Shown: piece after piece, positions 1-54,141 of the stretch
Position numbering within the stretch: the stretch's first letter is position 1
Layout of the letters: each line of letters opens with the position of its first letter
DNA from: a virus
Virus record (IMG/VR): IMGVR_UViG_3300031772_000022
Span: 5,129 to 69,128 of that record
Strand: one strand, 5' to 3'
Length of the DNA: 64,000 nucleotides
The notes under the pieces: model-generated
The model's input: only the letters and a program-made list of their open reading frames with translations
What the model was told of the DNA's origin: nothing
Databases searched by the model: none
Made by a program: the position numbers and the translations under genes

Positions 1-3000
1 TAGGCCATGGTCCGCGAGGAAGTCGTCGATGGGAGTCCCTCCCGAGTACACGTTGAAGCCCTGGTGAACGTGCGAGATCTTCGTACGGAGGTGCTCCGGA
101 GAGGAGACGACGTTCGCCTGGTTGAGGACCTGGTGTGGCGGGATCACCAGGTCAGTGAGGGTGAGCTTCCCAAGGGAGTACTTCAAGGACGCCCATATGG
201 TCCGCGACAGCTCGAACGGGTTGAACCCTCCGAAGGCAATACACTGCCTGCCCTCGGTCACCCCGTTGAGAAAGCTCGAGGAGGAAGAAGGGAGCTTGAG
301 AGGGTCGTAGTTGATGGATATGACCGGAATGTCCCCGCCGTCCAGGAAGACCGACACGCTGTGGACGGGGTCCCGGACCAGACGATAGCTGTGGGGGACT
401 GTCCAGTCAACCTGGTGGACATAATATGAACTGAGAAGGCTCGGATCTCCCCCGCCATAAACCCCGACATATCTGCGCGAGGCAGCAAGCGGGTCCGAGA
501 CCTTCCCGTCGCGGAACACGGACACAGAGCTCCACTCGACGGAGGACTTTGCCGTGGACAAGTCGGCGTTGGAGACGGCGTTTGCGCCAGAGCCAAAGCT
601 GACGGACGGTCCGTTAAACCCTGGCTTCAGTGAGGAGTACAGGAAGGTTCCGAGGACAACGTTATCCGCCAGGACAAGGACGAGTCCGGAAAGCTTGGAT
701 GTGTAGACGTCGTACGAGTGAATGTCGCCGTCGTTCCAGTTGAACGGGAACTCCGCCATGGAGTCGAGGTTCCCGGTCATGGCGTCGTAGCTAAGGACGT
801 TCAAGAATGAGTCCCCGAATTGGTCCTGTGAGAGCTGTACTTCGACATTCTTCCCCTGAGGGCCCTCGTCGAGATTCACAAGGGCGCCGCAGAACGTCAG
901 GTTGGACCCGGTGGCGACGGGATCTCCGGCGACGAAGGAGAGAACCTTCATCCGGAAGTCGCACTTCCAGTCCTGGCTGGCGGACAATACAGGTGCGGTG
1001 AACAGCGGGTTGGAAAGGACGTACGTCCGGAAATCGGAAGTGGACGAGTCCGTGATCCGAAGAGTCCGATTGAGGAGCTCCGAAAACTGTCCGCCGGTCT
1101 GAGACCATGTCGGGAAGTCGTGGTCAGGGAAGTCCTCCCCGAACCAGGCGATCTTCGGCTCCGGGTTGGAGTCTAGGCCAAAGTATGTGCCGGGGCTCAT
1201 CCCGAGCTTGGTCAGAGCGTCCCCGCCGATGAGTTGAAACTTGGACGCCGCTCCGACCGTGGAGTCCGTGAGCTTTACGACCGTGGACGGACCGCTCGTG
1301 TTGACGGAGGTCGTGGTCGAGGCAAAGCTGAACCCGAGCGCTCCGTTGATGACGGCTGCCGCCCCAGCCGCGGTCGTGACCGGCGACGGGAACTGGATCG
1401 TGACGGGAAGCTCGTTTCCGAAGGCCAGAATGAACAGATCGTTGGCGGCTATCCCGTACGGCTCGGGGCTCGTTCCGGAGACCGTCGCCGGCGTGGGGGT
1501 CGCCTGCAGGAAGACAAACTGGGTGGAGAAGATTCCGTCATCGATGAAGACGCCGGCCGCCTTGTTGTCGAGGCTGTGAGTCCAAAAACCAAGGCTGGCC
1601 TGGAACTCCACGACGCACGTGGTTGACGCTGCCAGGATGGGCTCGAGGCGGAGGTAGCCCTTGTACGCGCCCGTCGTCAGCCCAAGGTTTGCGACGACGG
1701 ACGCGTCCGCGCTGGCCGTCGAGTCGGATATGAGAACCCCGCTGGAAACACGATCAAAGCCTGCCTGCCCAATGGTTATCCACGGGGATACAGGGTCGAG
1801 CTCTGGAACGACGGCGGGGAAGTAGTCAACGCTCTTGTTGTCCGCTATCTGGTTGGCGTCGACGGGAGTGACGTTCGCGCGGACAAAAGACCACCGGCTC
1901 GTGGATGTGGGCTGAGAGCCGACAGAGCCGAAGAACACCTGCTGCATCGGGTCCAGGCGCAGGTCCATGTTCGAGGAAAGGGGCAGGTCCGCGTGCTCAA
2001 CCGTGGCGATAGGCTCCACAAAGCCGGTCAGGAAAAGGGAGACCTTCCCGCCGGGGACACGGGATATCCGGTACGTGGCGTATTGGGACCAGTCTATGGC
2101 GTAGGAGTTCCAGCTCGAGTCAAACTCCGGGTACCCGCGGTCCGTGAGAATCCCGACCTGACGGGCGGGGACCATGAAGTTGGTCCCGTCGTTGACGTAG
2201 TGAACCCCGTACTGGATGAGGTGAGCGTTATACTTGTCGTAAAGCTCGTTCACCAGGGCCGTCGCCGTAGCCTCATCCTCGGCGTCAAGGGTGGACACAG
2301 TGTTCACGACGTCAAGGACGAGGTGGACGACGGTAGGCCCCTTGGCCAGGTGCGAGTTGTAAAACTTTTTAATCCGGTTGATGAGGATGATCAGCGACCC
2401 GAGGCTGGTTGCGTCGACCACGTCCAGGGCGCTTCCAGGATCGTTCGGCCGGTGCGTTCCCGTCAGGACGAGGTGGGCGCCGAACTTCGACTTGAGGGAG
2501 TTCGCTAGGACGATGGCGGAAGAAAGGTTGGTGGCCTTTGTGACGACGAACCCGAAAAGCGCGACCTTCGCGCCGTCCGACAGCCCGAACCCAACGCCGG
2601 TGTTGGCGCCGTCAAGCTGAAGGTGAGAGGTCTCATCCACGTCGACCTTCGCCCTGAAGGCTGCTGACGTGATGCTCTCGTACTGGAAGCTAATGGCGTG
2701 GGTGAAGAACGGGGGACGGCTGTTCGGGCCGCTTGCCGAAGTGATATCGACGATCTTCAGCTCCGTACCACCAGGGGCCAGGGAGAGATTGCCGACGCCC
2801 TCGAAGATCCACGGGTCGACGGCGTTCTGCGGAAGCGTCGTCGGGTCGTAGCGGACGGTCACCTCCTTGACGGTCTCGGACAGGACTGGGTAGAACGTCT
2901 TGTTCGACGGAACGTTTAGGAGGAGGGTCGTGGGATCGTTCAAGCACGCCGAGTACGCCCTCTCCAAGGCCTTATACTTCCATCCAACCCTCCTAGGCTG

Positions 3001-4050
3001 GAATGGCGACGACACGGTCTTGTCGAACCTGTCCGGATCCGGCAGATAGGACCTGGACCGGTACCTGTGCCCTGGAAGACCTGCAAAGTTCCCATTGCCG
3101 AACTGGTTCAGGCCGAACTCGAAAGAGTTCGTGCGCTTAAGCTGAACCGGGATGTTCGGCATGAACCCGTAGTTGACCGAGACACTGTCCAGGGCGGCGG
3201 GCTTGCTTGTCAGGACGACGGCGCCGAGGAGCCCGAACACAGCGTCTATGGAGACGGGGATGCCGTTCACCTTCGCCGTCACGTCCGATGGGTCGTCGGC
3301 GATCTGGCCTGTCCTCGGATCGGATACAGTCCAGGTGAACGGACCCGTCGTCGGACCGCTGCCGAGAACCGGACGGACGTGCTTGACGTTCACGCGGTTG
3401 AAGGAGTCGGAGACAAGGTGGAACTCAAGGTTCTGACGGTGGGCCTCAAAGGACCGTCTGAGGGCGTTCACCAGGAGGATGGCACTGGCCATGTCGTGGG
3501 CCACAGGAAGCAGGATCCTGTCCTGCTCGTCCTGAGCCTTGTGAACGTGCGGAAGGGGGCCGATAAGGTCGAGGTGGGCGGCGAATTTAGTCCGCAGCTC
3601 GTTCATGAGGATGACGGCGGACGGGAAGTCGACGGCATAGGCTGACGAGACCGGGTTGAAGGTGTCGTTCGTCCCGTGAACCCCGCTCCACGTCCTATGG
3701 AGCTCATACGTCCTCTTCAGGTCGTTCACGAGCTCCACGATCCGGGCCGTCGTGGCCTGAAAGTTCAGCACATCAAAACCGCGGCCTGAAAGCTTCAGCC
3801 TCGACGCGGACAGGACCTGGGATATGGGGAACAGACCGTCGTTGACGCCGCCAGGGGATCCCGATATGAACAGCGTATGTCCGACGTTCGACTCGGTGAA
3901 CGTCCCCGTCGGGATGCTCACGGTGTTCGAAGATAGGATGGTGAGTCCTACCCCCGTGATCAGGGGCAGAGAGCTCTTGACGATCGGACCCTTGTGAGTG
4001 AAGATGGTCCTATCGAGAACGGAGTCGAGGCCCGTAAAGCTTATGGACAA
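1..4050 (-). CDS. Large virion structural protein, >=1350 aa, truncated by the window edge; carries two triplets of the H-x6-H-x3-D helical repeat
   Basis: Absent from the ORF track because it has no stop inside the window. Hand translation gives a TTG start at 4050 preceded by GAGG (MSISFTGLDSVLDRTIFTHKGPIVKSSLP...). The same frame reads ...GFNVYSGGTPIDDFLADHGL at base 1. It shares a 'DPSDVTAKVNG...VVL...P....V.VNY' module with the sheath. Frame spot-checked at several points, not at every codon. Confidence 0.85.
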   Translation of the reverse strand, partial: MSISFTGLDSVLDRTIFTHKGPIVKSSLPLITGVGLTILSSNTVSIPTGTFTESNVGHTLFISGSPGGVNDGLFPISQVLSASRLKLSGRGFDVLNFQATTARIVELVNDLKRTYELHRTWSGVHGTNDTFNPVSSAYAVDFPSAVILMNELRTKFAAHLDLIGPLPHVHKAQDEQDRILLPVAHDMASAILLVNALRRSFEAHRQNLEFHLVSDSFNRVNVKHVRPVLGSGPTTGPFTWTVSDPRTGQIADDPSDVTAKVNGIPVSIDAVFGLLGAVVLTSKPAALDSVSVNYGFMPNIPVQLKRTNSFEFGLNQFGNGNFAGLPGHRYRSRSYLPDPDRFDKTVSSPFQPRRVGWKYKALERAYSACLNDPTTLLLNVPSNKTFYPVLSETVKEVTVRYDPTTLPQNAVDPWIFEGVGNLSLAPGGTELKIVDITSASGPNSRPPFFTHAISFQYESITSAAFRAKVDVDETSHLQLDGANTGVGFGLSDGAKVALFGFVVTKATNLSSAIVLANSLKSKFGAHLVLTGTHRPNDPGSALDVVDATSLGSLIILINRIKKFYNSHLAKGPTVVHLVLDVVNTVSTLDAEDEATATALVNELYDKYNAHLIQYGVHYVNDGTNFMVPARQVGILTDRGYPEFDSSWNSYAIDWSQYATYRISRVPGGKVSLFLTGFVEPIATVEHADLPLSSNMDLRLDPMQQVFFGSVGSQPTSTSRWSFVRANVTPVDANQIADNKSVDYFPAVVPELDPVSPWITIGQAGFDRVSSGVLISDSTASADASVVANLGLTTGAYKGYLRLEPILAASTTCVVEFQASLGFWTHSLDNKAAGVFIDDGIFSTQFVFLQATPTPATVSGTSPEPYGIAANDLFILAFGNELPVTIQFPSPVTTAAGAAAVINGALGFSFASTTTSVNTSGPSTVVKLTDSTVGAASKFQLIGGDALTKLGMSPGTYFGLDSNPEPKIAWFGEDFPDHDFPTWSQTGGQFSELLNRTLRITDSSTSDFRTYVLSNPLFTAPVLSASQDWKCDFRMKVLSFVAGDPVATGSNLTFCGALVNLDEGPQGKNVEVQLSQDQFGDSFLNVLSYDAMTGNLDSMAEFPFNWNDGDIHSYDVYTSKLSGLVLVLADNVVLGTFLYSSLKPGFNGPSVSFGSGANAVSNADLSTAKSSVEWSSVSVFRDGKVSDPLAASRRYVGVYGGGDPSLLSSYYVHQVDWTVPHSYRLVRDPVHSVSVFLDGGDIPVISINYDPLKLPSSSSSFLNGVTEGRQCIAFGGFNPFELSRTIWASLKYSLGKLTLTDLVIPPHQVLNQANVVSSPEHLRTKISHVHQGFNVYSGGTPIDDFLADHGL

Positions 4051-4057
4051 GATGACC

Positions 4058-6562
4058 TCACAGCGGGTTCCCTACAAGGTCCATAAGGCCGGAAGCGCTG
4101 AGGGTGTACGAGATCTTCTCCATGTTCATAACCCGGACTGAGGCCGTCCTTTCATCAATCCAGTCGGCCCCCTTCAGGACCAAAGATCCTCCGGAGACGG
4201 TAACGGTGCCGCCAGTCCCTCCGTTCAGCTCAGTCTTATGCATTCTCTTCGAGAAATAAACCTCGATGGAGTCTGCCTCGAAGCTGTAGAAGAGCCGTCC
4301 CTCACGGTCCTCATGGAAGACAAGTCCGGGGCGCGGGAGGGCCGAGGCCACGGCCGGGTGGGCGGCGAAGCCCAGGAATTCCGTGTCGACGGGGACGGGG
4401 CTCGAAACCTGGCGTGAGCGGAGAACATCCCATTTCACGTCCGAGGCAAGGAAACGGAGCTGATGAACTTCATCGTCAAGCATACCGTCAAGGACGAAGA
4501 CCATCGTGGAAAAGAGTTTCGCCACGAGGAAGACCTCCCCGGGGGCCAGATGGTGGCCCGCGAAATGGGGGACGACGCCCGAAGAGGACATTGAGTCCCC
4601 AGAGCCGTTGTGCGTGATGAACGCTTCCCGAAGGGAGCCCAGAAGGATGATGAGGGACGGGAAGTCGAACGCGTCGGGAGTGAGAACCTTGTCATCAAGA
4701 TTTGTATGGACGGCAACGTTCCTCACATGCCCGTTGAACTTCGACTTCAGGAGGTTCGCCTTGTACAGCGTTGTCGGAAGGTCCGTGGTGGTCGCGTAGT
4801 CCGAGGCAGAGGAGAAGAACTGGCTCTCGGGGGTGACGTGGACCGCACCGGCTGGAGCCGGACCTAGGTGCTTCGCGTAGCTGAAGACAAGGCTGTTCAA
4901 AAGCCAGACGGCGTCCGGGAGCGTGCTGGTGGGGATCATCCGCACGCCCACAGGACCTATCGGGGTCCGTACGGAGAGCGAGGAAGAGTCGGAGACGAAT
5001 ACCTCCTTGTCGAACGAAGCACGGACCTCTCGGTCCATGACGATCTCCTTGGACAGGAGAACGGCCGGAGCCCCGACGGCGCGAGCGGAAATATCCCCAG
5101 AGAAGAAGAGAGGGTCTGTGAAACTGGCGAGATCTTCACTCCGGATTGTCCCACGCACCCGTATTGGCAGCGAGGTAATGGTCGTGGTGACGTGAAGGTC
5201 GACGAAGTACGTCAGCTGGCTTATGACCGGGAATGCCGTGGCCGTAGAGGCATGGTCTGTCACAGTCCCGATCTCGACAGGATACGCGCCCGACCATGCC
5301 AAGTTCCTCTCCGCGGCAAGGTGCTGGTTGTAGAGGAGCTTGAGGCCGTTCGTGGATGAGATGAGCTGCGCGTTAGTGTACGCGACGGGGAGCACCGGTA
5401 TCCCGTCCGGCTCGGGGTATAGATGGTTGCCAGGGTCGACGTCCTCAAGAGCGTGATCCTTGAAAACACTGAGGATATAGTCGTAGACGATGCCGGCAGT
5501 GACGGAGTCAATCGCTGGCGGGATGGAGAGCAGGTAAGCACGCAAGTCCGGCTGAATTGTTCCGTGGACGGGGGCTTCCACCACATGGTCCGCGAAGGTC
5601 GTCCTGACGGCGTTCAGGAAGTTGATGGCGTCCGTCAGGGTGACGCAGTCGGGGACGAGAACCGAGTTGATGGTGTCAGGCCTGGGGTGCGGTCCTCCCT
5701 GAGTGATGTTCCAGAGCGAAAGGTTGAGGACGTCAACCGACGCGGCGGGGCCGCTGAAATAGACGCGCACCGTGGCCGCGTTCACGTTCGGAACGATCTC
5801 CGACACATAGGCGTCGACGAACTGCATCTGGCTAAGAGAGCTCGAGTTGTATGGAGGAGGAGACCGGAGCTGAAGAGCAAGATTGACTTCAAACCCGCCG
5901 ACGTTGTTCGAAGCGTCGACGATGTTGAAGGTGGTGATGAAGTAGAAGTCACCGAGAGGGGTCGTGTTCGGGTAGACGAACCTCAACGTGTTCTCGGGCA
6001 TATTTTCAGCCGCCCACGGCTGATAGATCATCGGAACGGGCAAGAAGTCCGGGTTCCGGATGTTCGCCGCCGGTGAGGTTGAAAACGGACCGACGGGCCG
6101 ATCAAAGACAACGTCCACCATCCCCCGCTTCGAGAGGAAAGCGCCGATGGCGCGCGGAGCGTCGGGGACGTTGGCAGTGAAATTCGCCGCCACTGCCGCC
6201 ACTCCTTCACCGTCGAACCCGTGGACGCCGACCACCTGCATGGAGTAGGTGGACGTCCAGGTCAGGGGCTGGGAGGTCCTGACGACGACCGACAGACGGT
6301 CTGCGTCATAGAACTCGACCTCGTCGACGCCGGGAACGACAGTCCCGGACGTAATGCCCGCAAGAATGTATGAGGACGTGGCGAGGGCGGAGTCCGTGAC
6401 GGGCCGGTCAAAGCGGACTCGGATCTCCCTCGACGACAGCACATGGACCCGGAAGCCGATTGTCGGAAGGTCGAACGCGTCCACAATCCCGAGGACGATG
6501 TCCCCGAGCTGACTGTTCTGTGTACCTATCCTTCCGGTAAAGGGCATTCTGGCCTCGATCAC
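4058..6562 (-). CDS. Virion structural protein (834 aa) with Ig-like (Big_5-type) domains and degenerate His-repeat triplets
   Basis: Repeated 'V.F(D/S)(R/K)PV' Ig-like strands. Helical repeats such as FLNAVRTTFADHVVEAPVH and KANLLKSKFNGHVRNVAVH. Lies in the tail operon. Confidence 0.75.
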   Translation of the reverse strand: MIEARMPFTGRIGTQNSQLGDIVLGIVDAFDLPTIGFRVHVLSSREIRVRFDRPVTDSALATSSYILAGITSGTVVPGVDEVEFYDADRLSVVVRTSQPLTWTSTYSMQVVGVHGFDGEGVAAVAANFTANVPDAPRAIGAFLSKRGMVDVVFDRPVGPFSTSPAANIRNPDFLPVPMIYQPWAAENMPENTLRFVYPNTTPLGDFYFITTFNIVDASNNVGGFEVNLALQLRSPPPYNSSSLSQMQFVDAYVSEIVPNVNAATVRVYFSGPAASVDVLNLSLWNITQGGPHPRPDTINSVLVPDCVTLTDAINFLNAVRTTFADHVVEAPVHGTIQPDLRAYLLSIPPAIDSVTAGIVYDYILSVFKDHALEDVDPGNHLYPEPDGIPVLPVAYTNAQLISSTNGLKLLYNQHLAAERNLAWSGAYPVEIGTVTDHASTATAFPVISQLTYFVDLHVTTTITSLPIRVRGTIRSEDLASFTDPLFFSGDISARAVGAPAVLLSKEIVMDREVRASFDKEVFVSDSSSLSVRTPIGPVGVRMIPTSTLPDAVWLLNSLVFSYAKHLGPAPAGAVHVTPESQFFSSASDYATTTDLPTTLYKANLLKSKFNGHVRNVAVHTNLDDKVLTPDAFDFPSLIILLGSLREAFITHNGSGDSMSSSGVVPHFAGHHLAPGEVFLVAKLFSTMVFVLDGMLDDEVHQLRFLASDVKWDVLRSRQVSSPVPVDTEFLGFAAHPAVASALPRPGLVFHEDREGRLFYSFEADSIEVYFSKRMHKTELNGGTGGTVTVSGGSLVLKGADWIDERTASVRVMNMEKISYTLSASGLMDLVGNPL

Positions 6563-6565
6563 ACT

Positions 6566-6596
6566 ACGGGCTCAGCCCCACGGGCTCAGCCGTGGG
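6566..6596. repeat. 12-bp direct repeat ACGGGCTCAGCC x2, overlapping a CCCACGG/CCGTGGG inverted repeat at the collagen gene stop
   Basis: Seen directly: acgggctcagcc at 6566-6577 and 6580-6591, plus hairpin cccacgg-gctcag-ccgtggg. Confidence 0.55.
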
Positions 6597-8862
6597 AGAT
6601 CTCGAGCCTTGCCATTTTCACCACTGCCTGGTCTGTCGACGTTCCTGCCTGAATCTTGAGCTGGATCTCGTAAAGGGTGTTCGAGACGGGGAGAGAAAGG
6701 TCCGAGGACACGACGAACGTGGGAACAGAGTTTGTCGTGTAGAGCTGTGAGCCGGACATTCCCGTTCCGACGGAAAGGTTGTAGAGCTGGAGCGAGGCCG
6801 TAACGCCCGTAGCCGTCTCCATGATGGCTTGGAACTTGACGTGCTGGGGCTGACTCGGGATGCCCGGGTAGTAGTCGGACGGGTTGAACAGGAATCCGCC
6901 GATCCCGACGTACCCGGTCGCGCTTGACACCTGCTTGCCGGCCGCGCCATCGACGTAGTGGTACCGGGCGACGGTGTTGATGACATAGGCCGTAAGGCCC
7001 GCGGTCGGCGTGGACCCGGGAGCGAGCACGCTCTTCAACGCATAAATCGCGCCCTGGACGTTGGTGTAGCCCATCGTCGGGGCGTAGTCGGTGATGACGA
7101 CGCCGGTCGCATTCCCGACGCCAGGAGAGCCCTGGACTCCTTGCGGGCCTGTCGGGCCTGTCGGGCCAGTGACGCCAGTGACGCCGGGGGACCCTTGGGG
7201 AGCTCCAGCAGGGCCGGTGGCTCCGGTGGCGCCAGGCGTACCCTGCGGACCCGGCGGACCCGTAGGCCCGGTCGGGCCAAGGGGCCCGGTCGGTCCGTCA
7301 GGCCCGGTCGGGCCGCCGAAGACCGAGGCTCCGGTAGGTCCGGTAGCTCCCGTGTCGCCCTTCGGGCCCGTGTCGCCCCGCGGACCGGTCGGTCCGACAG
7401 CTCCGGTGGGCCCGGCCGGCCCTGTCGACCCGGTCATGCCGGGAGTTCCCTGAGGGGCGCCCGGAGGCCCGGTCACGCCCGTAAGACCGGGAGAACCCTG
7501 AGTGCCCGGGAAGCCAGCGGGAGCCACAAACCCTGCGGCGATGACCGCCCCGGACGGCTGGTTGCCGAACAGGTTCGAAAGGACGAGGTTCGTCCCCGTA
7601 CCGCCCGTGACGCCGACGACCGTGTAATAGCCACCTGTCGGTATGAAGACGGTCTGCCCGGGCTGCTGCCAGCTCTGGCTATACCCGTTCGCGGCGCCCG
7701 TGAGGACCGTCGTAAGGGTGAAGTTGTTCTGAGCGTACGTCGGCGTTGAGTTAAAGGCGTTGAGACCTGGGGACCCCTGGGGAGCTCCTGCGGGGCCGGT
7801 CGCCCCGGTCATCCCAGGAGAGCCCTGAGGCCCACCAAACGGACCCGTCGGCCCAGGAGAGCCCTGAGGTCCTGGACCTCCGGCAGCCCCTGGAGGGCCG
7901 CCAGGTCCCTCCGGTCCTGTAGGTCCCGTAGGTCCCTCCGGTCCCGTAGGTCCTCCGAAGATGGACGCTCCCGTGTCGCCCTTTGAACCGGTGGGTCCCG
8001 TCGCACCACGCGGCCCGGTGGGTCCGGTGGCTCCAACGCCGGTCGCGCCGGTCGACCCGGCTGGACCGACCGCTCCCGCAGGGCCGAGAGGTCCCGTAAA
8101 GCCAGGAGAGCCCTGAGGCCCTGGAACGCCAGTGGGTCCGGCCGGACCTGTAGGTCCTCCGAAGACCGAAGCTCCTGTCGGGCCAGTCTGACCCGTGACA
8201 CCCTGTATACCCTGCGGTCCGGTCACACCCTGCGGACCGGTCACACCCTGGGTGCCCTGCGGTCCCGTAGGACCGATCGCACCCGGGGGCCCGGTGGGCC
8301 CCGTAGGTCCTATCGATCCTGTGGGCCCCGTGGACCCCGTGGCTCCGACGCCAGTCGGTCCGACAGGTCCAGTGTTCCCGCGCGGGCCCGTGGGCCCGGT
8401 AGCGCCCGTCGGACCCGGCAGACCGGTGGCCCCAAAGCCGGCCGGGCCTGTGGCGCCCGTGTTCCCGCGTGGGCCCGTGACACCGGCCGCACCGGCAGGG
8501 CCAGTGGTGCCGGCCGCGCCGGTCGTCCCCGCTCCCGGCGGGCCGGTGGGTCCTTCCGGCCCGGTGATTCCGGTAATATCGGCCTTGAGCTGAGCGACGG
8601 CGCCCGCCGTCAGGATATGAGTAACAAGAGCGCCGTTGGAGTGGGAGGATGAGGCCGTCCCCTCCTGACCGCGAAGGAGTGTAAAAACGTTCCCGACCAC
8701 GCCCGTGACGAGCAAGATCTCGGCGTCGATCTTGAGGCGGAACTGCGGAGCCGGCGGAAAGAGGGCGGCGGACGTGACGAAGACGGTCGTGGCGACGGGC
8801 GTGATTCCGCCGACCTGGTTGATCGTAGTCTGCGCAGCGTTAGCAAATCTCTCTGTCGTCAT
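6586..8862 (-). CDS. Collagen-like (Gly-X-Y) tail fibre protein, 758 aa
   Basis: Two long GPT/GAT/GPQ triple-helix tracts flank a non-collagen domain. The N-terminal domain ([10 protein letters not shown]...[19 protein letters not shown]) is typical of phage fibre/baseplate attachment modules. Confidence 0.9.
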
Positions 8863-12700: not shown

Positions 12701-13137
12701 TATCCGACGGCCTCCTGCGTCGTCAGGTCGGGCCATGCCAGCTCGACGGAGATGGCCTTCCTCTTCATCTGGAAGCCGGTGACGGGGGCGGGGACGAGGC
12801 CTATTTCGGCGTCCGCCCTCACGTCCACCGTTATGGTCGTGACCGGACTGACGGACCCGGACAGGTCGATGGCCCTCAGACGGATGGTGTTCCTGCCCTT
12901 GTCGAGGTTCAGGCCGTTCGGAAAGCTTACGAGGTTGGGGACCGTGAAGCTCGGAACGGTAAGTCCGACGAGCGTCGGGTCGGAGACGAAGCCGATTCCG
13001 TTGACGTCAATCTGGACGTCAATCGTGTTGGCGTCGACCGAGCCGGTGAAGACCAGGTTGAACAGGTTGGTCGTCAGGCCAAGCTCGGTCGTGGTCCCGG
13101 ACCCGTCGAAATAGTCGATCTTCGGAGCGGTCGCCAT
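9712..13137 (-). CDS. Baseplate J-like wedge protein (1141 aa) with N-terminal Ig/FN3-like extension
   Basis: Motifs 'GNIGNVPAGAI', 'FGRDIES', 'GTEGGYE...PGV.DA', 'GGKVDIYVKG' and C-terminal 'SDM...EKVDGVDF'. Confidence 0.85.
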   Translation of the reverse strand: MATAPKIDYFDGSGTTTELGLTTNLFNLVFTGSVDANTIDVQIDVNGIGFVSDPTLVGLTVPSFTVPNLVSFPNGLNLDKGRNTIRLRAIDLSGSVSPVTTITVDVRADAEIGLVPAPVTGFQMKRKAISVELAWPDLTTQEAVGYNVYASTDAGGAGSGYLRVNADMVPATKPTTTTVETFPIANPSYDFSDSESLDLQIIARTVDPVSGAVVEQKTLNQYPLIQNPNVRFSIGLESLVLRKNYTFTHDRGASIGSGILNNDVFSVISPEDPLFYVISAVYFDKSTGIMQESRFSVELSGTPLALDATVRGVRIRDSRSISQGYISEVQKKEPTMALIPGSTVREVHIEPFSNEMQKAYFLTDWVHRSKSFSAMLAIDDPTFSGTSILVSQSSYKQSLKTALSISDDSAVQSFIDSSFDSLASSFGLGRQGSRSAVVNQTFFTTSKPVKDLIVSQGAIVSSSTNSSAPRYISQGAVILSAANAPAYYNPDLRRYEIRVQMVSDTPGNIGNVPAGAIDTVTSGASGFQTINEVSADFGRDIESNLGVSEDGQRALSSLDTGTEGGYERITFGTPGVLDAFIVKSGDPQMMRDYDDVRKKHIGGKVDIYVKGTNERTVTETFAFQFSVAKSVRFDVIDATELVFRARDSRLTVSNPIQEMLNNPSQGLGLRNHSNLPTTDYDLTGVTILDYRTIKLNTFIPQPATLVDDFVEGDYRYRSNNHFTAGVQPVRRVASVIGTGSGALDSATGYTLYKLQDPLLDGESTGSTDYVTINQVNNVPNGVAIAVNDEQHVLIGEFQEPLGSVGVNSFTLSVLSFDRTILYNGPSTSNPDYLVVAGSQTKPLKIVRSSSSAIPTGATVSVDYEHDENFDVTYIVNDTLQQVQARVKNSKHLTADALVKQAVENPLSAEVTVRLLPNAVQSSVDSGLRTAVSILLDRKGVGNQVHQSDMTGSMEKVDGVDFLIQPYTKLTLQDGALRIRDLVLSDYTFLPSLSQFTNAVYILIDELPFATTDGGGPNTIHHGVYKDELIMESSPALADVGVVVNRSFIIGRNGAIITGYSDDATLVPLFITPDAVAAERLRRTANRVLVSLNAGLNPPDVPTDHSFACTYVVSGDRGSKDLGASQVEYLSPGDLTITYKKS

Positions 13138-48442: not shown

Positions 48443-48516
48443 TCAGCGCCAAGACGGTACAGGAGAGCGTTGAGACTGGAGTACATCCGCCGATTTACTC
48501 GGATGTACGGTCCCGG

Positions 48517-49086: not shown

Positions 49087-52000
49087 TTACGCGCGGATGC
49101 GTACGGAAAGAGTGACCACTATATACTCGAGCGGGAAGACCGGGACGTAGATGGCCGACGCCCGGAGGATGGTCGGGTCGTTGTCGTCGACCGTGACCTC
49201 GATGCCCGTGGCCTTCTGCACGATCTGCTGGTCGACGAGCTGCGAGAAGGCGCCGACCATCGAGTTCTCGACCGACTTGATCAGGGAGCCCGTGAGCTTC
49301 TGGCCAATGTACGGGTCGAGGACCTTCCGCATCGTCTGCTGGACGTAGTGGATGGTCAGTGTGACGGACGGCGTGCGCGTGATGACCGTGTCGACGTTCG
49401 TCGTCAGGCCGTGGCGGACGCGCATTCCGGTGTCGACCTGCTCGATGATCGAGACTCCGGCGACGGCGACCTGGTTGGCCTCCGTCGGGTCGAGCAGGCG
49501 CCCGAGCCGCTTGAAGCCAACGATGGAGCGCCGGGTGAGCGGAGTGGCCACGTCGAACGCGGAGTTCGTCAGGGTTCCGGCGAGCGCCGCGGCCATGTAT
49601 GAGCTGTCGACGAGCTGGTCGGTCAGGTTGCCCTGGTCGTCCGAGACCGAGAGGACGTACGTGTCGGGGTAAGACACGAGCATCAGCTCGGAGTTGAGCC
49701 CCTTGGCGATGGCCTGGACGCCGAGCGGATTGGTCCCCGCGGCGACGCCCACAACGCCGATCCGCTCACCCTCCTGGCGCGGCGTGCTCATGAACACGCA
49801 GTGCTGGTTCAGGGAGGAGAAGATCGTCGGATCGGTGGCGAGCGGGACGATGACGTCCGGCTTGACCGATCCCTGGATGGGCTTGCGCTGCTCGTCGATG
49901 GCCGCGATGAACGACCCGCCGCCGGCTTGCGAGGACCCCTCCGCCCTCAGGACCTGCTTGAGGCCGATGAGGATGGCGCCGTTGAGGAGGCAGATGCGGG
50001 CGGCCAGCGAGAGCGGGTTATCCGGCGTCGGGGAGCCGAAGTTCTGCTGGATCTTCTTGATCTCCCGGAAGAGCTGCGTGGAGAGGTCCGTCTTGGCGTA
50101 GTCGTAGGAGACGTAGTAAACGTCGCCGATGGCCGGCTCCGTCCCCGAACGGGCGTACGTGCTGACGAGCGCCGTCGTCCCCGGGTTCATGTTGTTGGTG
50201 TTGAACACCGTGATCTCGACGCCTGAGATGGCCTTGATCGGGATCGAGGCGTCCGTGATGAACGACTGACCGACTACGAGGGTGAAGTTTCCACCACTGG
50301 CGTAGTCGCCTGCGACCGCCTTGAGGACGGTGAACCGGAGTCCCGTCGTGACATCCGTGTACGTCTGGCCCGGGAACCCGGTGCCGTGAGAGCCCAGAAG
50401 GCCCTGGGAGGAGGAGACGGAGAAGCCCGCCTGGGCGTTCTCGCCGACATCACCCGAGGTACCCGGAACGATTCCGAGCTTCGTGTCCGTGACGAAGGCC
50501 GTGTTCGAGACGTTCGAGAACGCCACAGTCGATAGGTTGCCCGTCGTGAGGGAGTCGATGCGGAGGAACCCGCCGAGGCCGGGAGATGCGACGCGGTACG
50601 ACACGCCGACGGCCTGGAAGGACGCGTTGGCATTGAGGGCGTTGGCGATATCGGAGGCCGTCGGCTGCTTGCGCTGGGCCGAACCGCCGGAGACGAAGCC
50701 GAGGACGTCGTTCGCCGTGCTAGTCGACTTGACATTCAGGGAGGACAAGGCGTTGTTGAGGCGTGAGGTGAGTACCAGCTTCCCAGCGTTGATACCGGCG
50801 CCAGTACGAGCCACGAGCTCCGTCATAGACGTGGTCGCCTGGTTCACAGCGTCCTTCGTGCCGTGGACGTGGTACGGGCCCTGGGTCTGCGCCAGGTGGA
50901 CTGGGTACTTGACCTGGAGCTCCGCCGTCAGGGCGACGAGGGACGCCGGGCTGGAGGCGGCGACCGACGTGATGACGTTGGTCGTGTCCGCCACGAAGTG
51001 GTAGTTCGTGGAGGCAAGGTGGACGTTGAGCTTCGTCTTGATGTCGTTCGCGAGGGCCTCACCCGTGAGCTGGGAGAAGGCGGCGGGCGCCGTGATCGTG
51101 TCCGTCACATCGTTGATGATGTGAACGCCGGCCAGCAAGAAGTGAGCGTTGAGCTTCGCCTTGATGTCGTTGAGGATCGGGTAGCAGTCGGTGTTGACGA
51201 CCGGAGGGAGGGCCGGGGTCAGCGTGTCGACCGTGTCGTCGAAGCCGTGGACACCAATCTGGACGAGGTGGGAGTTGTAGAACTCCTTGAGGTCGTTCGC
51301 GAGGACAACGGCCGACTGGAGGTTGGTCGCGTTCCCGGTGGCGACGGCGTTGGACGTGTCGCTGAGCTGGTGGACGCCGCCCTGAGAGAGGTGGGCGTTA
51401 TACTTCGCCTTGATGTCGTTGAGAAGGGCCTGGGCGTCGGCGAGGGTGACGGCGGCAGGAAGGACGACAGAGTTGGTCCCGTCGGCCGCCACGTGGTAGG
51501 CCGTTGAGACGCGGTGGAGGTTGTAGTCGCTACGGATCTCGTTCGCCAGGGCGATCACGTCGGCCGTGTAGGTCGCGATGTCGGCCGTGGAGGCGAGGGC
51601 GATGTACGAGTCGTTGATCGACGTAACGACGTCCTGGAGGAGGACCGCCGTGCCGCCCGGGAGGGTGGTCGTAACGTCCTTGCCGTCGACGTTGAGCTGG
51701 AACGAGTCGTTGACGCCCGTGGAGATGTTGAACGGACCGGTCTGGGTGCCGACGAGGGTCGCCACCTGATTGATCGCGTTGTACGAGCCCGTGGCCGCCT
51801 GGTTCGGCTCGAGGCCGACCTTTCCGGAGGCGTCCGTCTCGCCGGCCGCCGTGGGCGACATGATGAGGACGCTCGAGACGAGGCCGTTCGTGAACGAGGG
51901 GAGGCTCCGGGCCTTGATCGAGAGGATCTTCTGGAGCCCGTACGTCACGACTGACACGAGGTTGTTGGGGGCCGTCGCGGCGAAGGTCACCGACCCATCC

Positions 52001-54141
52001 GCGTGGACCTGGACGTCAGCGTCGATGACCGCGTTGACGGCCGCAGCGACGGCGGCAAGGGTCGTCAGGCCGGTCATGTTGACGGGTATGAGGTTCACGC
52101 CGTCGACGTTGAGGACGAGGCGGTCCGTCGAGAGCATCGACAGGGGCTCAGTCACGCCGCTGGAGAGAAGGACCGCCTTGTACTGCAGCGAAAGGTCGAC
52201 GGAGACCGCGGGGTTCCCGTCGATGATCATCCCGCCGAAGATGCGGGTCGCCTGGTAGATGTCGTACGGCTCCTGCTTCTGGTTGGAGAAGGAGGCGTGG
52301 GTCGCCGGGTCGAGGGCCGTGTTGAAGGTGACGGTGACGGTCTCAGCGACGGGGTTTCCGGCGCCGGTGTGAATGGCGTCCGGAAGGCTCTCGGTACCGG
52401 AGGGCCACTGGATGGTTTGCGGAAGGGAGGCTTTAACGCCAAACTTGGCTCCGAAGACCAGGGCCCCGCTGAGCGCGGACGCGATCGAGTAGCTTCCGGT
52501 GCCGGACGAACCGGGCGTGAGGACCGAGAGGGTGAAGGTGTCGTCCGTGATCCGGTTGTACCAGAACGTCGCGAACGCCCTGTACTCGGCCGACACGGGG
52601 GTGGCGAGCGTCACGATGTTCGTGGAGCTGTCGACCTCGAGGACCTTGACCGGAGGGCGGGATGAAGCGTCCCGCCAGGTCTTGCCGACGTAGACCGTGA
52701 CGAGGTCCGGGCGGTTCGTCGGAAGGTCAAGGCGACCGTTCGTGATGGTGGTGTAAGTCGCCTGGCCGAGGGGCGTATCGCGACCGTTTCCGCTGGTGGG
52801 GACCTCCGGAAGGAGGAACTTGGTCGTGGAGACAGTGCTCGTGGTCGTGTCGACGAACCTGGCGCAGGGAGCGCCGAAGATCCTGTCGTCGACCAGCATG
52901 CCGACGATCTGGGTGGAGTCAAAGGACGCGGACCCGGTCTTGTCGCCGGCCTGGACCTGAAAGGCCGTCCCCCATTGGATCTTGGACTGGTCGCCGTCGT
53001 TGACGACGATGAAGTCCGGACCGTTGAGGAAGTCGCGGCGGCCGGGCGCAATGCCGACGTTCCCGACCGTGATGATGTTGCTGTTCGGGAGGTAGTCGAA
53101 CGTATCCTGGAACGTGTTGAAGTAGTAGGTGATGAGGACCTTCGAGCCACTCTTCGGCGCGAAGGGAAGGCCGACGAGGCGCTGGGAACCGTCGACCGAC
53201 TTGGCGAGGACTTGGGTCCCGTTCACCGTCACCGTCACCTTGGACGGGTCTGTCGTCGTGATGCCACCATCAGAGCCATCGACCACGGGGCCGTTGAACA
53301 CGCGGAATGACTGCGTGCGAGCGGTGTAGTCGCCCGCATTGAAGCCGAGGACTCCGTTCGCGCCGCCGCTACCGACGAGGATGTTTCCGAGGGCGATCAG
53401 CTGGACGTGGGCGAGCCCCTCGTTGTCGATGTGCACCGAGGCTGTGAGACCCGGGACGTTCGCGGCGTTCACGTCGTTGGCGACGTCCGTGGCGGTCCGC
53501 GTGACGCCCGACGTCAGGACGATCGTCACGGGGACCGTGTCGTCGAGCGTGATGTCGAGCTTGTCGTTCGAGCCGAGGGTGACCGCGTAAGTCTCCGTCT
53601 TCGGAGCGACGAGGATGGCCGGACCGTCGGTGATCTGGGCCGACACGTCGTCGGTGATCCGTGTATCCTTGCGGTGGAAGAAGTAGTTGATCGTGACCTT
53701 GTCGTCCTCAGCCGGAGGCACGAGGAGCGAGACGAGTCCGTTCGGACCGTCGATGGCCGCGACGACGACGGGGGCTCCGTTAACGGAGACCGAGACCTTG
53801 CTCGCGTCGTAGGTAGCCGAGCCACGGCCTTGGCCGTCGACGATCGGATAATTGCGGACCTTGAACTTCGATTTGTTTCCGTCCTGGTTCCCGAGGATCG
53901 GGCTTTGGACGGTTCCACCGGAAATCCAACGACCTTGGGCGTCCTCGCCGAAGATCGGTGTATCCGCGACGCTCGAGGATCCGCGGATCATCTCGAAGTT
54001 CGTCTGGGAGAGAGACTCTTTGCCCACGCCGATCAGGACCGGGACCCGGAGGCCCCCAAGGAGCAGGCCAACCGCCGGCTCGACAACGGTCTGCGCGTAG
54101 ACGCCCGGAGGTGCGTAGGTCGTAAAAGGTCCGATGCCCAT
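49087..54141 (-). CDS. Tail sheath protein, unusually large (1684 aa)
   Basis: N-terminal 'Y.PPGVY' and 'VPVLIGVG'. C-terminal sheath domain '...YIGQK...A.YVPVFPLEYIVV'. Strong codon bias; GGGAG SD. Confidence 0.92.
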   Translation of the reverse strand: MGIGPFTTYAPPGVYAQTVVEPAVGLLLGGLRVPVLIGVGKESLSQTNFEMIRGSSSVADTPIFGEDAQGRWISGGTVQSPILGNQDGNKSKFKVRNYPIVDGQGRGSATYDASKVSVSVNGAPVVVAAIDGPNGLVSLLVPPAEDDKVTINYFFHRKDTRITDDVSAQITDGPAILVAPKTETYAVTLGSNDKLDITLDDTVPVTIVLTSGVTRTATDVANDVNAANVPGLTASVHIDNEGLAHVQLIALGNILVGSGGANGVLGFNAGDYTARTQSFRVFNGPVVDGSDGGITTTDPSKVTVTVNGTQVLAKSVDGSQRLVGLPFAPKSGSKVLITYYFNTFQDTFDYLPNSNIITVGNVGIAPGRRDFLNGPDFIVVNDGDQSKIQWGTAFQVQAGDKTGSASFDSTQIVGMLVDDRIFGAPCARFVDTTTSTVSTTKFLLPEVPTSGNGRDTPLGQATYTTITNGRLDLPTNRPDLVTVYVGKTWRDASSRPPVKVLEVDSSTNIVTLATPVSAEYRAFATFWYNRITDDTFTLSVLTPGSSGTGSYSIASALSGALVFGAKFGVKASLPQTIQWPSGTESLPDAIHTGAGNPVAETVTVTFNTALDPATHASFSNQKQEPYDIYQATRIFGGMIIDGNPAVSVDLSLQYKAVLLSSGVTEPLSMLSTDRLVLNVDGVNLIPVNMTGLTTLAAVAAAVNAVIDADVQVHADGSVTFAATAPNNLVSVVTYGLQKILSIKARSLPSFTNGLVSSVLIMSPTAAGETDASGKVGLEPNQAATGSYNAINQVATLVGTQTGPFNISTGVNDSFQLNVDGKDVTTTLPGGTAVLLQDVVTSINDSYIALASTADIATYTADVIALANEIRSDYNLHRVSTAYHVAADGTNSVVLPAAVTLADAQALLNDIKAKYNAHLSQGGVHQLSDTSNAVATGNATNLQSAVVLANDLKEFYNSHLVQIGVHGFDDTVDTLTPALPPVVNTDCYPILNDIKAKLNAHFLLAGVHIINDVTDTITAPAAFSQLTGEALANDIKTKLNVHLASTNYHFVADTTNVITSVAASSPASLVALTAELQVKYPVHLAQTQGPYHVHGTKDAVNQATTSMTELVARTGAGINAGKLVLTSRLNNALSSLNVKSTSTANDVLGFVSGGSAQRKQPTASDIANALNANASFQAVGVSYRVASPGLGGFLRIDSLTTGNLSTVAFSNVSNTAFVTDTKLGIVPGTSGDVGENAQAGFSVSSSQGLLGSHGTGFPGQTYTDVTTGLRFTVLKAVAGDYASGGNFTLVVGQSFITDASIPIKAISGVEITVFNTNNMNPGTTALVSTYARSGTEPAIGDVYYVSYDYAKTDLSTQLFREIKKIQQNFGSPTPDNPLSLAARICLLNGAILIGLKQVLRAEGSSQAGGGSFIAAIDEQRKPIQGSVKPDVIVPLATDPTIFSSLNQHCVFMSTPRQEGERIGVVGVAAGTNPLGVQAIAKGLNSELMLVSYPDTYVLSVSDDQGNLTDQLVDSSYMAAALAGTLTNSAFDVATPLTRRSIVGFKRLGRLLDPTEANQVAVAGVSIIEQVDTGMRVRHGLTTNVDTVITRTPSVTLTIHYVQQTMRKVLDPYIGQKLTGSLIKSVENSMVGAFSQLVDQQIVQKATGIEVTVDDNDPTILRASAIYVPVFPLEYIVVTLSVRIRA

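What the first reader, a model, noticed from the sequence alone, without database searches (positions are those of the whole stretch)
2180..5650. The same His repeat occurs in triplets in two other virion proteins
Seen: the >=1350-aa ORF has one triplet at ~3395-3750 (LVNDLKRTYELHRTWSGVHGTND, LMNELRTKFAAHLDLIGPLPHVHKAQD, LVNALRRSFEAHRQNLEFHLVSD). It has a second at ~2180-2520 (LANSLKSKFGAHLVLTGTHRPND, LINRIKKFYNSHLAKGPTVHLVLD, LVNELYDKYNAHLIQYGVHYVND). The 834-aa ORF has two degenerate triplets at ~5320-5650 and ~4550-4920. Copies come as 3+3, 3+3 and 6. Inference: the folding unit is a pseudo-three-fold three-helix bundle with up to 6 His + 3 Asp, inserted as a mobile module into unrelated beta-rich scaffolds. 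This points to a virion-wide system rather than a one-off expansion.
Basis: partly seen in the sequence, partly recalled or inferred. Interest (0 to 1): 0.8.

Follow-up and report, generated by a model that had tools for sequence, protein, structure and literature searches.

The report
Three-helix histidine module in phage tail proteins
Three tail proteins of a giant soil-type phage carry an undescribed 125-residue domain made of three helix-plus-loop repeats with six conserved histidines, which is always gained and lost three repeats at a time and may be a metal-stapled building block.

Summary
All four in-window triplets lie at the stated places. The sheath (window 49087-54141) has six copies. 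The ">=1350-aa ORF" is cut by the window edge. In the contig it is 2591 aa with 27 copies (3+3+18+3).

The three-repeat unit has independent support:
- AlphaFold2 folds one triplet as three helices plus three ordered loops (pLDDT 94, pTM 0.89).
- In 24 sheath homologues the helix count is 6 (21), 3 (2) or 5 detected (1).
- Array lengths in 38 homologues of the long protein cluster at 3, 6, 9, 12, 15 and 18 copies. All 7 outliers resolve by eye to multiples of three with a foreign domain nested inside.
- Of 162 clean isolated blocks with at least 3 helices, 155 are multiples of three.
- Small proteins carry a circularly permuted unit.

The family is large (1941 clusters at 50% identity). It has no Pfam, PHROGs or NCBIfam model and no PDB or BFVD match.

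Not supported:
- "Virion-wide": in four complete relatives the module sits only in the sheath and these two baseplate-distal proteins, plus one extra frame in one genome.
- The His6Asp3 metal cluster and the parallel pseudo-threefold geometry remain inference, because model coordinates were not visible.

The parts
1..4050 (-). N-terminal 1350 codons of protein A. The full ORF is 2591 aa and continues beyond window position 1 (contig G000:C1 1403-9178). It lies downstream of the baseplate and fibre genes and ends in a lectin-like beta-sandwich.
   Evidence: ORF list. Full length from the contig. No Pfam family. The C-terminal domain of the AF2 model best matches legume lectins (Foldseek E 0.02, prob 1.00, TMt about 0.5).
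3370..3750 (-). Protein A, triplet 1 (residues 101-227).
   Evidence: Three HMM copies with iE 1.6e-14, 1.6e-12 and 5.5e-14. Triplet profile E 1.5e-42. Coordinates checked. All six His are >=90% conserved in 31 homologues.
2149..2526 (-). Protein A, triplet 2 (residues 509-634).
   Evidence: Three HMM copies with iE 2.9e-14, 1.4e-12 and 4.3e-16. Triplet profile E 6.7e-43. Coordinates checked.
4058..6562 (-). Protein B, 834 aa. It has an N-terminal Ig-like region (Big_5, just under the cut-off) and two degenerate triplets.
   Evidence: ORF list. Pfam Big_5 E 1.4e-4, 23.0 bits against a cut-off of 23.6. 38 homologues of 750-1230 aa.
5243..5638 (-). Protein B, triplet 1 (residues 309-440), degenerate.
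   Evidence: HMM copies at 309 (iE 4.2e-12) and 399 (iE 0.38). The middle copy was found only by the regular expression. Triplet profile E 1.5e-31.
4493..4921 (-). Protein B, triplet 2 (residues 548-690), degenerate, with long loops.
   Evidence: HMM copies with iE 2.6e-10, 2.1e-4 and 1.2e-6. Triplet profile E 2.0e-31.
49087..54141 (-). Protein C, the tail sheath, 1684 aa. It has a large variable central cassette.
   Evidence: phrog_2839 tail sheath E 1.5e-22 over residues 1333-1682. Pfam Phage_sheath_1C 20.5 bits, below the cut-off of 26.9. tblastn to the annotated tail sheath of Tunturiibacter phage Tunturi_5, E 9e-50. Residues 627-1141 (against LR745208) and 558-1253 (against Tunturi_5) do not align.
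50827..51567 (-). Sheath sextet: six contiguous repeats (residues 859-1105), equal to two triplets.
   Evidence: Six HMM copies with iE 4.6e-17 to 4.6e-7. Two triplet-profile hits with E 8e-45 and 1.4e-39. AF2 model of the first triplet has pLDDT 94.1. Homologues split the sextet exactly between copies 3 and 4 or keep only the first three.

Best explanation
**Repeat and domain.** The repeat is about 41 residues long. It is an amphipathic helix of about 20 residues ending in His, followed by an ordered loop of about 20 residues that carries a second His seven residues later, then Asp and Asn. The family consensus is roughly L-x-N-x-L-K-x-x-Y-N-x-H ... G-V-H-x-x-x-D-x-x-N-V-V. Three consecutive repeats fold together, within one chain, into one compact domain of about 125 residues: three helices plus three return loops. 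That domain, not the single repeat, is what is inserted, duplicated, deleted and circularly permuted.

**Where it sits in this phage.** The phage is a jumbo myovirus, and the module occurs in three tail proteins:
- twice in the outer variable cassette of the sheath;
- twice in an 834-aa baseplate-distal protein;
- nine times in a 2591-aa fibre-like protein that ends in a lectin-like domain.

**Most likely role (inferred).** It is a rigid, surface-exposed building block. On the sheath it acts as decoration. In the long protein it acts as a length-tunable spacer of 3 to 18 repeats.

**Metal hypothesis (inferred, not shown).**
- The three helices run parallel around a pseudo-threefold axis.
- The first His sits in a core 'd' heptad layer.
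- The 3+3 His, backed by three Asp, form a structural metal site. This would be a single-chain analogue of the inter-chain His clusters of trimeric phage fibres.
For: **Fold**
- AF2 of sheath residues 857-982, with an alignment of the contig's 13 triplets, gave mean pLDDT 94.1 and pTM 0.89.
- The model has helices 2-21, 44-62 and 85-103. The loops are non-regular but confident, with 10-residue pLDDT blocks of 95-99 through the first two loops.
- AF2 of A residues 1405-2591 gave exactly 18 helices in the array, then 3 more, then a beta-sandwich.

**Unit of three**
- Sheath family, 24 proteins: 21 have 6 helices, 2 have 3 and 1 has 5 detected.
  - P0188 is 1557 aa, that is 1684 minus 127.
  - P0063 and P0176 carry a foreign stretch exactly between copies 3 and 4.
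- A-family arrays measured between conserved flanks: 31 of 38 fall within 0.75 repeat of 3, 6, 9, 12, 15 or 18.
  - The 7 others, read by eye, have 6, 9, 9, 3, 9, 9 and 12 helices plus a nested non-repeat domain.
- B-family blocks scored as 5: 3 of 3 inspected have a degenerate sixth helix.
- Under criteria fixed beforehand (isolated, canonical spacing, away from the termini) there were 208 blocks.
  - Of the 162 with at least 3 helices, 155 are multiples of three (135 of 3, 17 of 6, 3 of 9).
  - In proteins outside the three families the figure is 27 of 28.
- Small proteins carry loop-(helix-loop)-(helix-loop)-helix, a permuted unit that still has 3 helices and 3 loops.

**Conserved residues**
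- H20, H27, H61, H68 and H102 are invariant in the 13 triplets. H109, D31 and D72 are >=90% conserved.
- In 31 homologues that are 23-56% identical, all six His of each of the first two triplets are >=90% conserved. Mean column identity is 31%.
- Over 1043 repeats: His1 100%, His2 100%, Asp 96%, helix Asn 83%, loop Asn 79%.
- Hydrophobic positions 3, 7, 10 and 14, followed by His at 17, follow a 4-3-4-3 heptad spacing.
- In protein A, His makes up 6.1% of repeat residues and 1.7% elsewhere.

**Modularity and surface location**
- The module is absent from the whole records of Tunturi_5 and LR745208.
- In the sheath it lies in the cassette that does not align to those two sheaths.
- It is also inserted in siphovirus major tail proteins (P0099 and P0131, phrog_9522) and in a fibre-like protein (P0118).
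- It also lies between the PA14 and ABC_toxin_N regions of two TcA-like proteins.

**Analogy.** Paired His (HxH) of the trimeric T4 gp37 tip bind seven iron ions (PMC11705849, passages read).
Against: **Geometry and metal**
- No coordinates or PAE were available. Helix orientation, His-His distances and domain independence inside arrays were not seen.
- No metal evidence of any kind exists.
- The His spacing is H-x6-H on a helix end and a loop, not the HxH on beta strands of the known phage iron sites.

**Phase within the 18-copy array**
- Repeats three apart are no more alike than neighbours. Mean BLOSUM scores are 32-39 at lags 1-9, with no peak at lag 3.
- The pLDDT dips (78-126, 269-310, 381-421, 501-503) fall only partly on the 3n boundaries. 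The phase of the triplets is therefore not settled.
- The long model is only moderately confident (pLDDT 74.7, pTM 0.44).

**Counting noise**
- Raw automatic counts are noisy because degenerate copies are missed.
- With strict thresholds, block sizes of 1 (126), 2 (69), 4 (23), 5 (20) and 7 (9) appear beside 3 (124) and 6 (27).
- The clean-block test still has 46 blocks of 1-2 helices and 7 of sizes 4, 5, 7 or 8.
- Homologous positions in related proteins are not independent events.

**Variants and function**
- Some metagenomic proteins have helix-only (24-residue period) or loop-only units. The helix-loop pairing is therefore not obligatory.
- No assay speaks to function, whether spacer, decoration or binding.
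Confidence: 0.7

Rival explanations
1. The fold and the three-repeat unit are as above, but there is no metal. The invariant His, Asp and Asn would form a buried hydrogen-bond network that fixes the return loops onto the helices. It might be pH-sensitive. The domain would be purely a spacer or decoration.
For: The loops are confidently modelled without any ligand. Asp (96%) and two Asn (83%, 79%) are conserved beside the His, as expected for a polar network. The nearest cultured relative infects an acidobacterium from tundra soil (PMC11924767, listing and abstract only). In that setting His protonation would matter.
Against: His is 100% conserved at two positions over 1043 repeats. A core-layer position for His1 is more typical of ligand or metal sites than of packing. 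Three buried His in a core layer without a ligand would be destabilising (inference).
Confidence: 0.3
2. The module is mainly an adhesin. It would be a glycan- or cell-surface-binding domain that gives weak, multivalent attachment, as proposed for Ig-like domains on phage virions, and the His cluster would be part of the binding site.
For: The module is always found in exposed parts of extracellular machines:
- the sheath outer cassette;
- major tail proteins and a fibre-like protein;
- the region of TcA-like proteins between PA14 and the ABC_toxin_N domain;
- a protein ending in a lectin-like domain.

Copy number is highly variable between close relatives.
Against: The surface is not variable in the way binding sites usually are. 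The most conserved residues are the same in every copy and every host protein. Eighteen near-equivalent copies in a row look more like a rod than like eighteen binding sites. No ligand is known.
Confidence: 0.2
3. There is no intrachain unit. The proteins would be trimers, and each repeat would pair with the same repeat of the two other chains in a long three-stranded coiled coil, as in many fibres.
For: The helices have a heptad pattern. Protein A lies where tail fibres are encoded.
Against: - An interchain coil sets no rule on copy number, yet counts are multiples of three.
- The module sits in sheath and tail-tube proteins, which form hexameric rings rather than trimers (established knowledge of contractile and siphovirus tails).
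- AF2 folds a single chain with pTM 0.89.
- Permuted units keep 3 helices and 3 loops.
Confidence: 0.03
4. The His/His/Asp set is catalytic, for example a small hydrolase or depolymerase site.
For: His and Asp are invariant.
Against: - Up to nine units occur in one protein, and hundreds per tail.
- There is no match to any enzyme family in Pfam, NCBIfam or the PDB.
- The fold is a small helical bundle without an evident cleft (inference).
Confidence: 0.03

Closest known systems
HxH iron sites of trimeric phage fibres and spikes (T4 gp37 tip; spike apex proteins)
   Same: Both are virion tail proteins. Pairs of conserved His are repeated along the protein, and three-fold related copies would bring six His together. 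In T4 gp37 seven iron ions are held by paired His (PMC11705849, passages read). The spike examples are recalled, not read here.
   Different: - There the three-fold axis is made by three chains and the His lie on beta structure two residues apart.
- Here one chain supplies three repeats, His1 ends a helix and His2 lies seven residues later in a loop.
- No sequence or fold similarity was found.
- Metal binding here is untested.
Ig-like and other accessory domains displayed on phage virion proteins (Big_2, FN3, Hoc-type)
   Same: It is a small autonomous domain inserted or appended to sheath, tail-tube and fibre proteins. It is present or absent between close relatives and variable in copy number. 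That Ig-like domains behave this way is recalled knowledge.
   Different: It is all-alpha with ordered loops rather than a beta sandwich. It is built from three internal repeats and has invariant His/Asp. No Pfam, PHROGs or NCBIfam model covers it.
Single-chain 'trimer-of-hairpins' bundles such as gp41-5 (PDB 3o3x)
   Same: This is the best structural alignment found: Z 6.6, rmsd 3.2 A over 111 residues. That protein has three parallel core helices with return segments lying in the grooves (recalled). This is the topology inferred here.
   Different: The score is below the noise level that the tool gives for helical bundles. The return segments here are loops, not helices. There is no sequence relation (4% identity).
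Designed three-stranded coiled coils with a His3 metal layer (TRI / alpha3D type; recalled)
   Same: His lies in an a/d core layer of a three-helix bundle, as the heptad reading suggests for His1.
   Different: Those are designed peptides. The natural module has a second His layer in the loops, and its orientation and metal are untested.
PHROG 'head fiber protein' families phrog_6994 and phrog_4366
   Same: Short, weak matches inside the repeat region of some metagenomic homologues (P0132 E 5.4e-6, P0126 E 6.2e-5, P0134 E 1.8e-4, P0099 E 7.1e-4).
   Different: Only 1 of the contig's 13 triplets matches phrog_6994, at E 0.072. The profile is 67 positions long and the matches cover about 30 of them. 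tblastn of P0132 and of the sheath sextet against 50,697 phage records found nothing.

Membership tests
Phage tail sheath (protein C as host of the module) | Conserved C-terminal sheath domain | tested here: met
   phrog_2839 'tail sheath' E 1.5e-22 over residues 1333-1682. tblastn to annotated sheaths of Tunturi_5, Bacillus phage G and Mycobacterium phages. Pfam Phage_sheath_1C scores only 20.5 bits, below its cut-off of 26.9.
HxH iron-binding motif of trimeric phage fibres | Two His separated by one residue (His-x-His) | tested here: not met
   The conserved His are seven residues apart: positions 17 and 24 of the repeat profile, and H20/H27, H61/H68 and H102/H109 in the triplet.
HxH iron-binding motif of trimeric phage fibres | Site built by three chains of an intertwined beta-structured homotrimer | tested here: not met
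   A single chain is predicted as three helices plus loops with pTM 0.89. The multiple-of-three rule points to an intrachain unit.
HxH iron-binding motif of trimeric phage fibres | Bound iron (or another metal) coordinated by six His | not testable with these tools
   No coordinates, no metal modelling and no experiment were available.
Ig-like virion accessory domains (Big_2, FN3, I-set) | Beta-sandwich fold or a match to the Pfam models | tested here: not met
   The model is all-helical. No Pfam match within the repeats. Big_5 matches only the N-terminus of protein B, outside the repeats.
Ig-like virion accessory domains (Big_2, FN3, I-set) | Sporadic insertion into exposed parts of virion proteins | tested here: met
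   This is a likeness in behaviour, not membership.
Any curated family (Pfam-A, NCBIfam, PHROGs v4) or solved structure | Significant profile or fold match to the triplet | tested here: inconclusive
   - Pfam: best E 0.0061, below the cut-offs.
- NCBIfam: best E 0.02.
- PHROGs: best is phrog_37030 (unknown function), E 8.9e-4, in 3 of 13 triplets.
- PDB sequences: best E 0.024, triosephosphate isomerase.
- Foldseek against the PDB and BFVD: no hit at E <= 0.001.
- VIA-align against 48,161 chains: best Z 6.6.
phi29-type / PHROG 'head fiber protein' (phrog_6994) | Profile match across the family model | tested here: inconclusive
   1 of 13 triplets at E 0.072. Partial matches of about 30 of 67 positions in four metagenomic homologues.

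The most novel reading that the evidence does not exclude
Each triplet would be a new single-chain metalloprotein fold. Three parallel helices place three His in a core layer, and the return loops add three more His backed by three Asp. Together they would form an octahedral His6 (or double His3) metal centre on a pseudo-threefold axis. This would be an intrachain reinvention of the inter-chain iron sites of trimeric fibres.

The sheath carries two units per subunit and the long protein carries nine. One virion would then hold many hundreds of metal ions. The module would be a widespread (about 1,900 clusters at 50% identity) and so far unnamed metal-binding building block of phage tails and related injection machines.
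Probability: 0.35. Interest if true: 0.8.

Novelty: new variant of a known kind. Interest (0 to 1): 0.6.

Why it matters
**An unnamed, abundant domain.** It names and delimits a large protein domain family that current libraries miss.
- It has 1941 clusters at 50% identity.
- Nearly all members with a recorded origin are viral.
- No homologue was detectable by BLAST in 50,697 phage records.

**A rule for annotation.** Copies come in threes, and the unit may be permuted or may host nested domains. This lets annotators parse very long 'hypothetical' tail proteins of soil jumbo phages.

**A target for structural biology.** The model is confident yet has no known fold match.

**If the His cluster binds metal.** Tails of these phages would carry hundreds of metal ions. 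That bears on the idea that phage tails act as metal ligands in the environment (PMC11705849). It would also give a natural example of a His-lined three-helix metal site.

**Length tuning.** Copy number in the long protein varies from 3 to 18 in units of three. This suggests a simple way by which these phages tune the reach of a lectin-tipped fibre.

Tried and rejected
**Phase of triplets inside the 18-copy array**
- A lag analysis of repeat similarity showed no period of three.
- The pLDDT dips of the long model fit the 3n boundaries only partly.
- The phase is left open.

**Automatic counting with strict thresholds**
- The counts were too noisy because degenerate copies are missed.
- I replaced them by flank-anchored array lengths, reading by eye and a clean-block test with criteria fixed beforehand.

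**Fold searches**
- Foldseek against the PDB and BFVD gave no hit at E <= 0.001.
- VIA-align wide gave a best Z of 6.6, within the noise for helical models.

**Family libraries and PDB sequences**
- Nothing significant was found.

**Protein Atlas**
- It returned 27 clusters at score >= 0.9. All are 'hypothetical' and mostly viral.

**Names from sources**
- Only 'hypothetical protein' was given.

**Cultured phages**
- tblastn of the sheath sextet and of P0132 against 50,697 phage records found no match.

**Bacterial and archaeal genomes**
- The alignment could not be used for the scan (error).
- A single protein (P0099) found only 2 metagenome-assembled contigs.
- The range in cellular genomes is therefore barely tested.

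**Literature**
- I searched for the motif word 'YNAH' with 'phage' (0 papers).
- I searched histidine / pseudo-threefold / three-helix bundle / phage (78 papers, 12 listed, none relevant by title or abstract).
- I searched tail sheath / insertion domain / helical bundle / jumbo phage (11 papers, none relevant by title or abstract).
- I therefore found no description in print. Subscription journals and supplements were not searched.

**Earlier findings of this scan**
- Nothing was on record.

**Not used**
- Complex prediction was not used, because no protein-protein binding claim is made.
Full report
**What the window is**

The window is G000:C1 5129-69128 of a 69,128-base IMG/VR virus record, which CheckV rates 16% complete. 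On the minus strand it carries a contractile-tail module:
- a 1684-aa tail sheath at 49087-54141 (phrog_2839, E 1.5e-22);
- a baseplate-J/wedge protein at 9712-13137 (Pfam Baseplate_J E 4.1e-7; phrog_6 E 6.6e-14);
- a collagen-like protein at 6586-8862 (Pfam Collagen E 3e-41);
- the 834-aa protein B at 4058-6562;
- protein A, which starts at 4050 and runs off the window.

Relatives of the sheath lie on complete, terminally redundant genomes of 362-436 kb. This is therefore a jumbo myovirus. The nearest named relative of the sheath is Tunturiibacter phage Tunturi_5, whose host is an acidobacterium.

**Checking the observation**

- A loose motif scan of all six frames hit only these three ORFs, 11 times.
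- A repeat HMM gave 39 rows, most at independent E-values of 1e-9 to 1e-17. The reversed-sequence control was clean.
- There is no DNA-level tandem repeat. Triplets are only 21-35% identical to each other, so the copies are old.
- The main correction is that protein A is 2591 aa in the contig.
  - Outside the window it has a contiguous run of 18 repeats (residues 1420-2188) and one more triplet (2283-2405).
  - Its total is 27, arranged 3+3+18+3.

**The fold**

- I aligned the 13 triplets of the contig and folded the first sheath triplet with AlphaFold2.
  - Mean pLDDT was 94.1 and pTM 0.89.
  - The model has three helices (2-21, 44-62, 85-103), each followed by about 22 residues without regular secondary structure but with high confidence.
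- The long model of A residues 1405-2591 shows exactly 18 helices in the array, three more in the last triplet, and a C-terminal beta-sandwich (mean pLDDT 74.7, pTM 0.44).
  - The best Foldseek matches of that sandwich are legume lectins (E 0.02, prob 1.00, TMt about 0.5).
- I could not see coordinates or PAE. Three points are therefore inferences:
  - that the helices are parallel;
  - that the loops return in the grooves;
  - that the His cluster together.
- The basis for these inferences is:
  - the equivalence of the three repeats;
  - the length of the loops;
  - the 4-3-4-3 spacing of hydrophobic positions, which puts His1 in the next core layer;
  - weakly, the best structural alignment, which is to a single-chain gp41-type bundle (Z 6.6, within noise).

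**Is three really the unit?**

Several lines that do not depend on the model say yes.

1. *Sheath family* (24 proteins).
   - 21 have six helices.
   - P0188 is full length at 1557 aa, exactly one unit (127 residues) shorter, and has three.
   - P0183 (1027 aa, probably cut) has three.
   - P0178 has five detected plus a stray loop hit.
   - In P0063 and P0176 a foreign stretch sits exactly between copies 3 and 4. In P0063 it gives a sub-threshold Pfam E1_FCCH match.
   - In P0072 and P0146 the two triplets also lie apart.
2. *Arrays of the A family.* Measured between conserved flanks in 38 homologues, 31 have lengths within 0.75 repeat of 3 (4 proteins), 6 (7), 9 (5), 12 (8), 15 (1) or 18 (6) copies.
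   - I read the seven outliers by eye. They have 6, 9, 9, 3, 9, 9 and 12 helices, each with a non-repeat domain of about 85-290 residues nested after a repeat.
3. *B family.* The three blocks scored as five that I inspected each have a degenerate sixth helix.
4. *Clean-block test.* The criteria were fixed beforehand: isolated by at least 150 residues, canonical spacing, away from the termini.
   - 155 of the 162 blocks with at least three helices are multiples of three.
   - In proteins outside the three families the figure is 27 of 28.
   - The same test leaves 46 blocks of one or two helices. I take these to be weak hits and degenerate units.
5. *Permuted units.* Many small proteins carry loop, helix-loop, helix-loop, helix. 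This is a circular permutation that keeps three helices and three loops, as expected for a closed unit whose ends meet.

Evidence pointing the other way:
- Raw strict-threshold counts contain many blocks of other sizes.
- There is no lag-3 similarity in the array.
- The pLDDT dips mark the 3n boundaries only in part.
- The repeats of a unit are therefore interchangeable in sequence, and the phase within long arrays is not settled.

**Conserved chemistry**

- Five His are invariant and a sixth is >=90% conserved in the 13 triplets, with Asp four residues after His2.
- In the positionally homologous first and second triplets of 31 diverged A-family proteins, all six His are >=90% conserved. Mean column identity is 31%.
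- Over 1043 repeats from 150 proteins the aligned His1 and His2 are 100%, Asp 96% and two Asn 83% and 79%. The HMM selects for these residues, so those figures are upper bounds.
- His makes up 6.1% of repeat residues in protein A and 1.7% elsewhere.

**Distribution**

- A triplet profile finds 1941 clusters at 50% identity with E <= 1e-3, and 1112 with E <= 1e-10, among 1.84 billion representatives.
- None of the libraries has a model for the triplet. No solved chain is related by sequence and no fold match is significant.
- Sources name the homologues 'hypothetical protein' at best.
- No cultured phage record matched by tblastn.
- The whole genomes of Tunturi_5 and LR745208, whose sheaths are clear homologues, have no copy. 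The sheath region that holds the module is the part that does not align to them.
- Elsewhere the unit sits inside siphovirus major tail proteins (P0099, P0131) and a fibre-like protein (P0118). It also sits between PA14 and the ABC_toxin_N region of two TcA-like proteins.
- All of these are exposed parts of extracellular machines.

**"Virion-wide"?**

- In this contig the profile hits 13 places, all in A, B and C.
- In four complete relatives it hits only the sheath, the A-like and the B-like frames, with one further 2016-aa frame in G002. The sheath of G001 has a single unit.
- The trio is thus a conserved feature of the tails of this clade. No capsid or other virion protein carries the module.

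**How it most likely works**

- *Shown or strongly supported:* a 125-residue, three-repeat, all-alpha domain that behaves as an autonomous, insertable and permutable unit on exposed parts of tail proteins.
- *Inferred, on the sheath:* it decorates the outside of every subunit, two units each.
- *Inferred, in protein A:* strings of units form a rod whose length changes in steps of one unit between relatives (3 to 18 repeats). The strings separate beta-rich domains and lead to a lectin-like tip, consistent with a long receptor-binding fibre.
- *Inferred and untested:* the His layers hold a structural metal, by analogy with the paired His that bind iron in the trimeric T4 gp37 tip (PMC11705849, passages read).
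- The module is not a member of that motif family. The His spacing, the secondary structure and the single-chain origin all differ.
- A metal-free polar network and a binding role remain live rivals.

**Verdict**

The core of the interpretation (unit of three, modular insertion) is supported by independent tests. The metal cluster and its geometry are open. The "virion-wide" reading should be narrowed to "three tail proteins". This is an undescribed domain family of clear structural interest.

Noticed in passing
contig G000:C1 1406-1960 (outside the window, C-terminus of protein A): The last ~190 residues of protein A are predicted as a beta-sandwich. Its best Foldseek matches are legume lectins (E 0.02, prob 1.00). 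A similar 'NWNDG..H.Y' stretch also occurs at A residues ~1101-1115 inside the window, so A may hold more than one such domain (seen by eye).
   Followed up: partly
window 6586-8862 (-): A 758-aa collagen-like protein (Pfam Collagen E 3e-41) with a non-collagen C-terminal ~150 residues. It lies between the baseplate genes and protein B and is probably another fibre.
   Followed up: no
window 15081-15995 (-) and 56325-57101 (-): Two GIY-YIG / homing-endonuclease genes sit among the structural genes. The first has Pfam GIY-YIG E 6.8e-6 and NUMOD3. The second has phrog_314 E 2.4e-39.
   Followed up: no
window 47957-48442 (-): A 161-aa ORF just downstream of the sheath gene matches 2OG-Fe(II) oxygenase (phrog_81 E 8.7e-19). 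An overlapping 254-aa frame at 48091-48855 has no match.
   Followed up: no
homologues P0015, P0021, P0011, P0044, P0053, P0062, P0034; sheath homologues P0063, P0176, P0178: Foreign domains of about 75-290 residues are nested inside or between triplets. Several share a 'GD.V.I.G..G....NG...VT.V....F.L'-like stretch. In P0063 the insert gives a sub-threshold Pfam E1_FCCH match (E 1.8e-4), and a source lists PF16190 for P0178. The module therefore tolerates domain insertion in its loops.
   Followed up: partly
metagenomic proteins P0051, P0107, P0050, P0037: Variant architectures of the same elements occur. There are runs of helices without loops (24-residue period; 41 spacings of exactly 24) and extra loop-only elements. 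P0037 has 9 helices and 9 loops but in irregular order. How these fold is unknown.
   Followed up: no
metagenomic proteins P0085 (3370 aa) and P0092 (2977 aa): Two TcA-like proteins (Pfam TcA_TcB_BD, ABC_toxin_N, Neuraminidase, PA14, VRP1) carry six helices of the module between the PA14 and ABC_toxin_N regions. The module is therefore not confined to phages.
   Followed up: no
window 49087-54141 (-) and 1-4050 (-): Outside the His modules, short stretches resembling the flagellin 'IN' motif recur in the sheath and in protein A (seen by eye). The sheath homologue P0146 gives a sub-threshold Pfam Flagellin_IN match (E 7.2e-4).
   Followed up: no
contig G000:C1 3-509 (-), outside the window: A 169-aa ORF two genes downstream of protein A gives a weak, sub-threshold match to Pfam BW3TFN, 'baseplate wedge 3 tail fiber network component' (E 0.0048, 17.3 bits against a cut-off of 27).
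   Followed up: no
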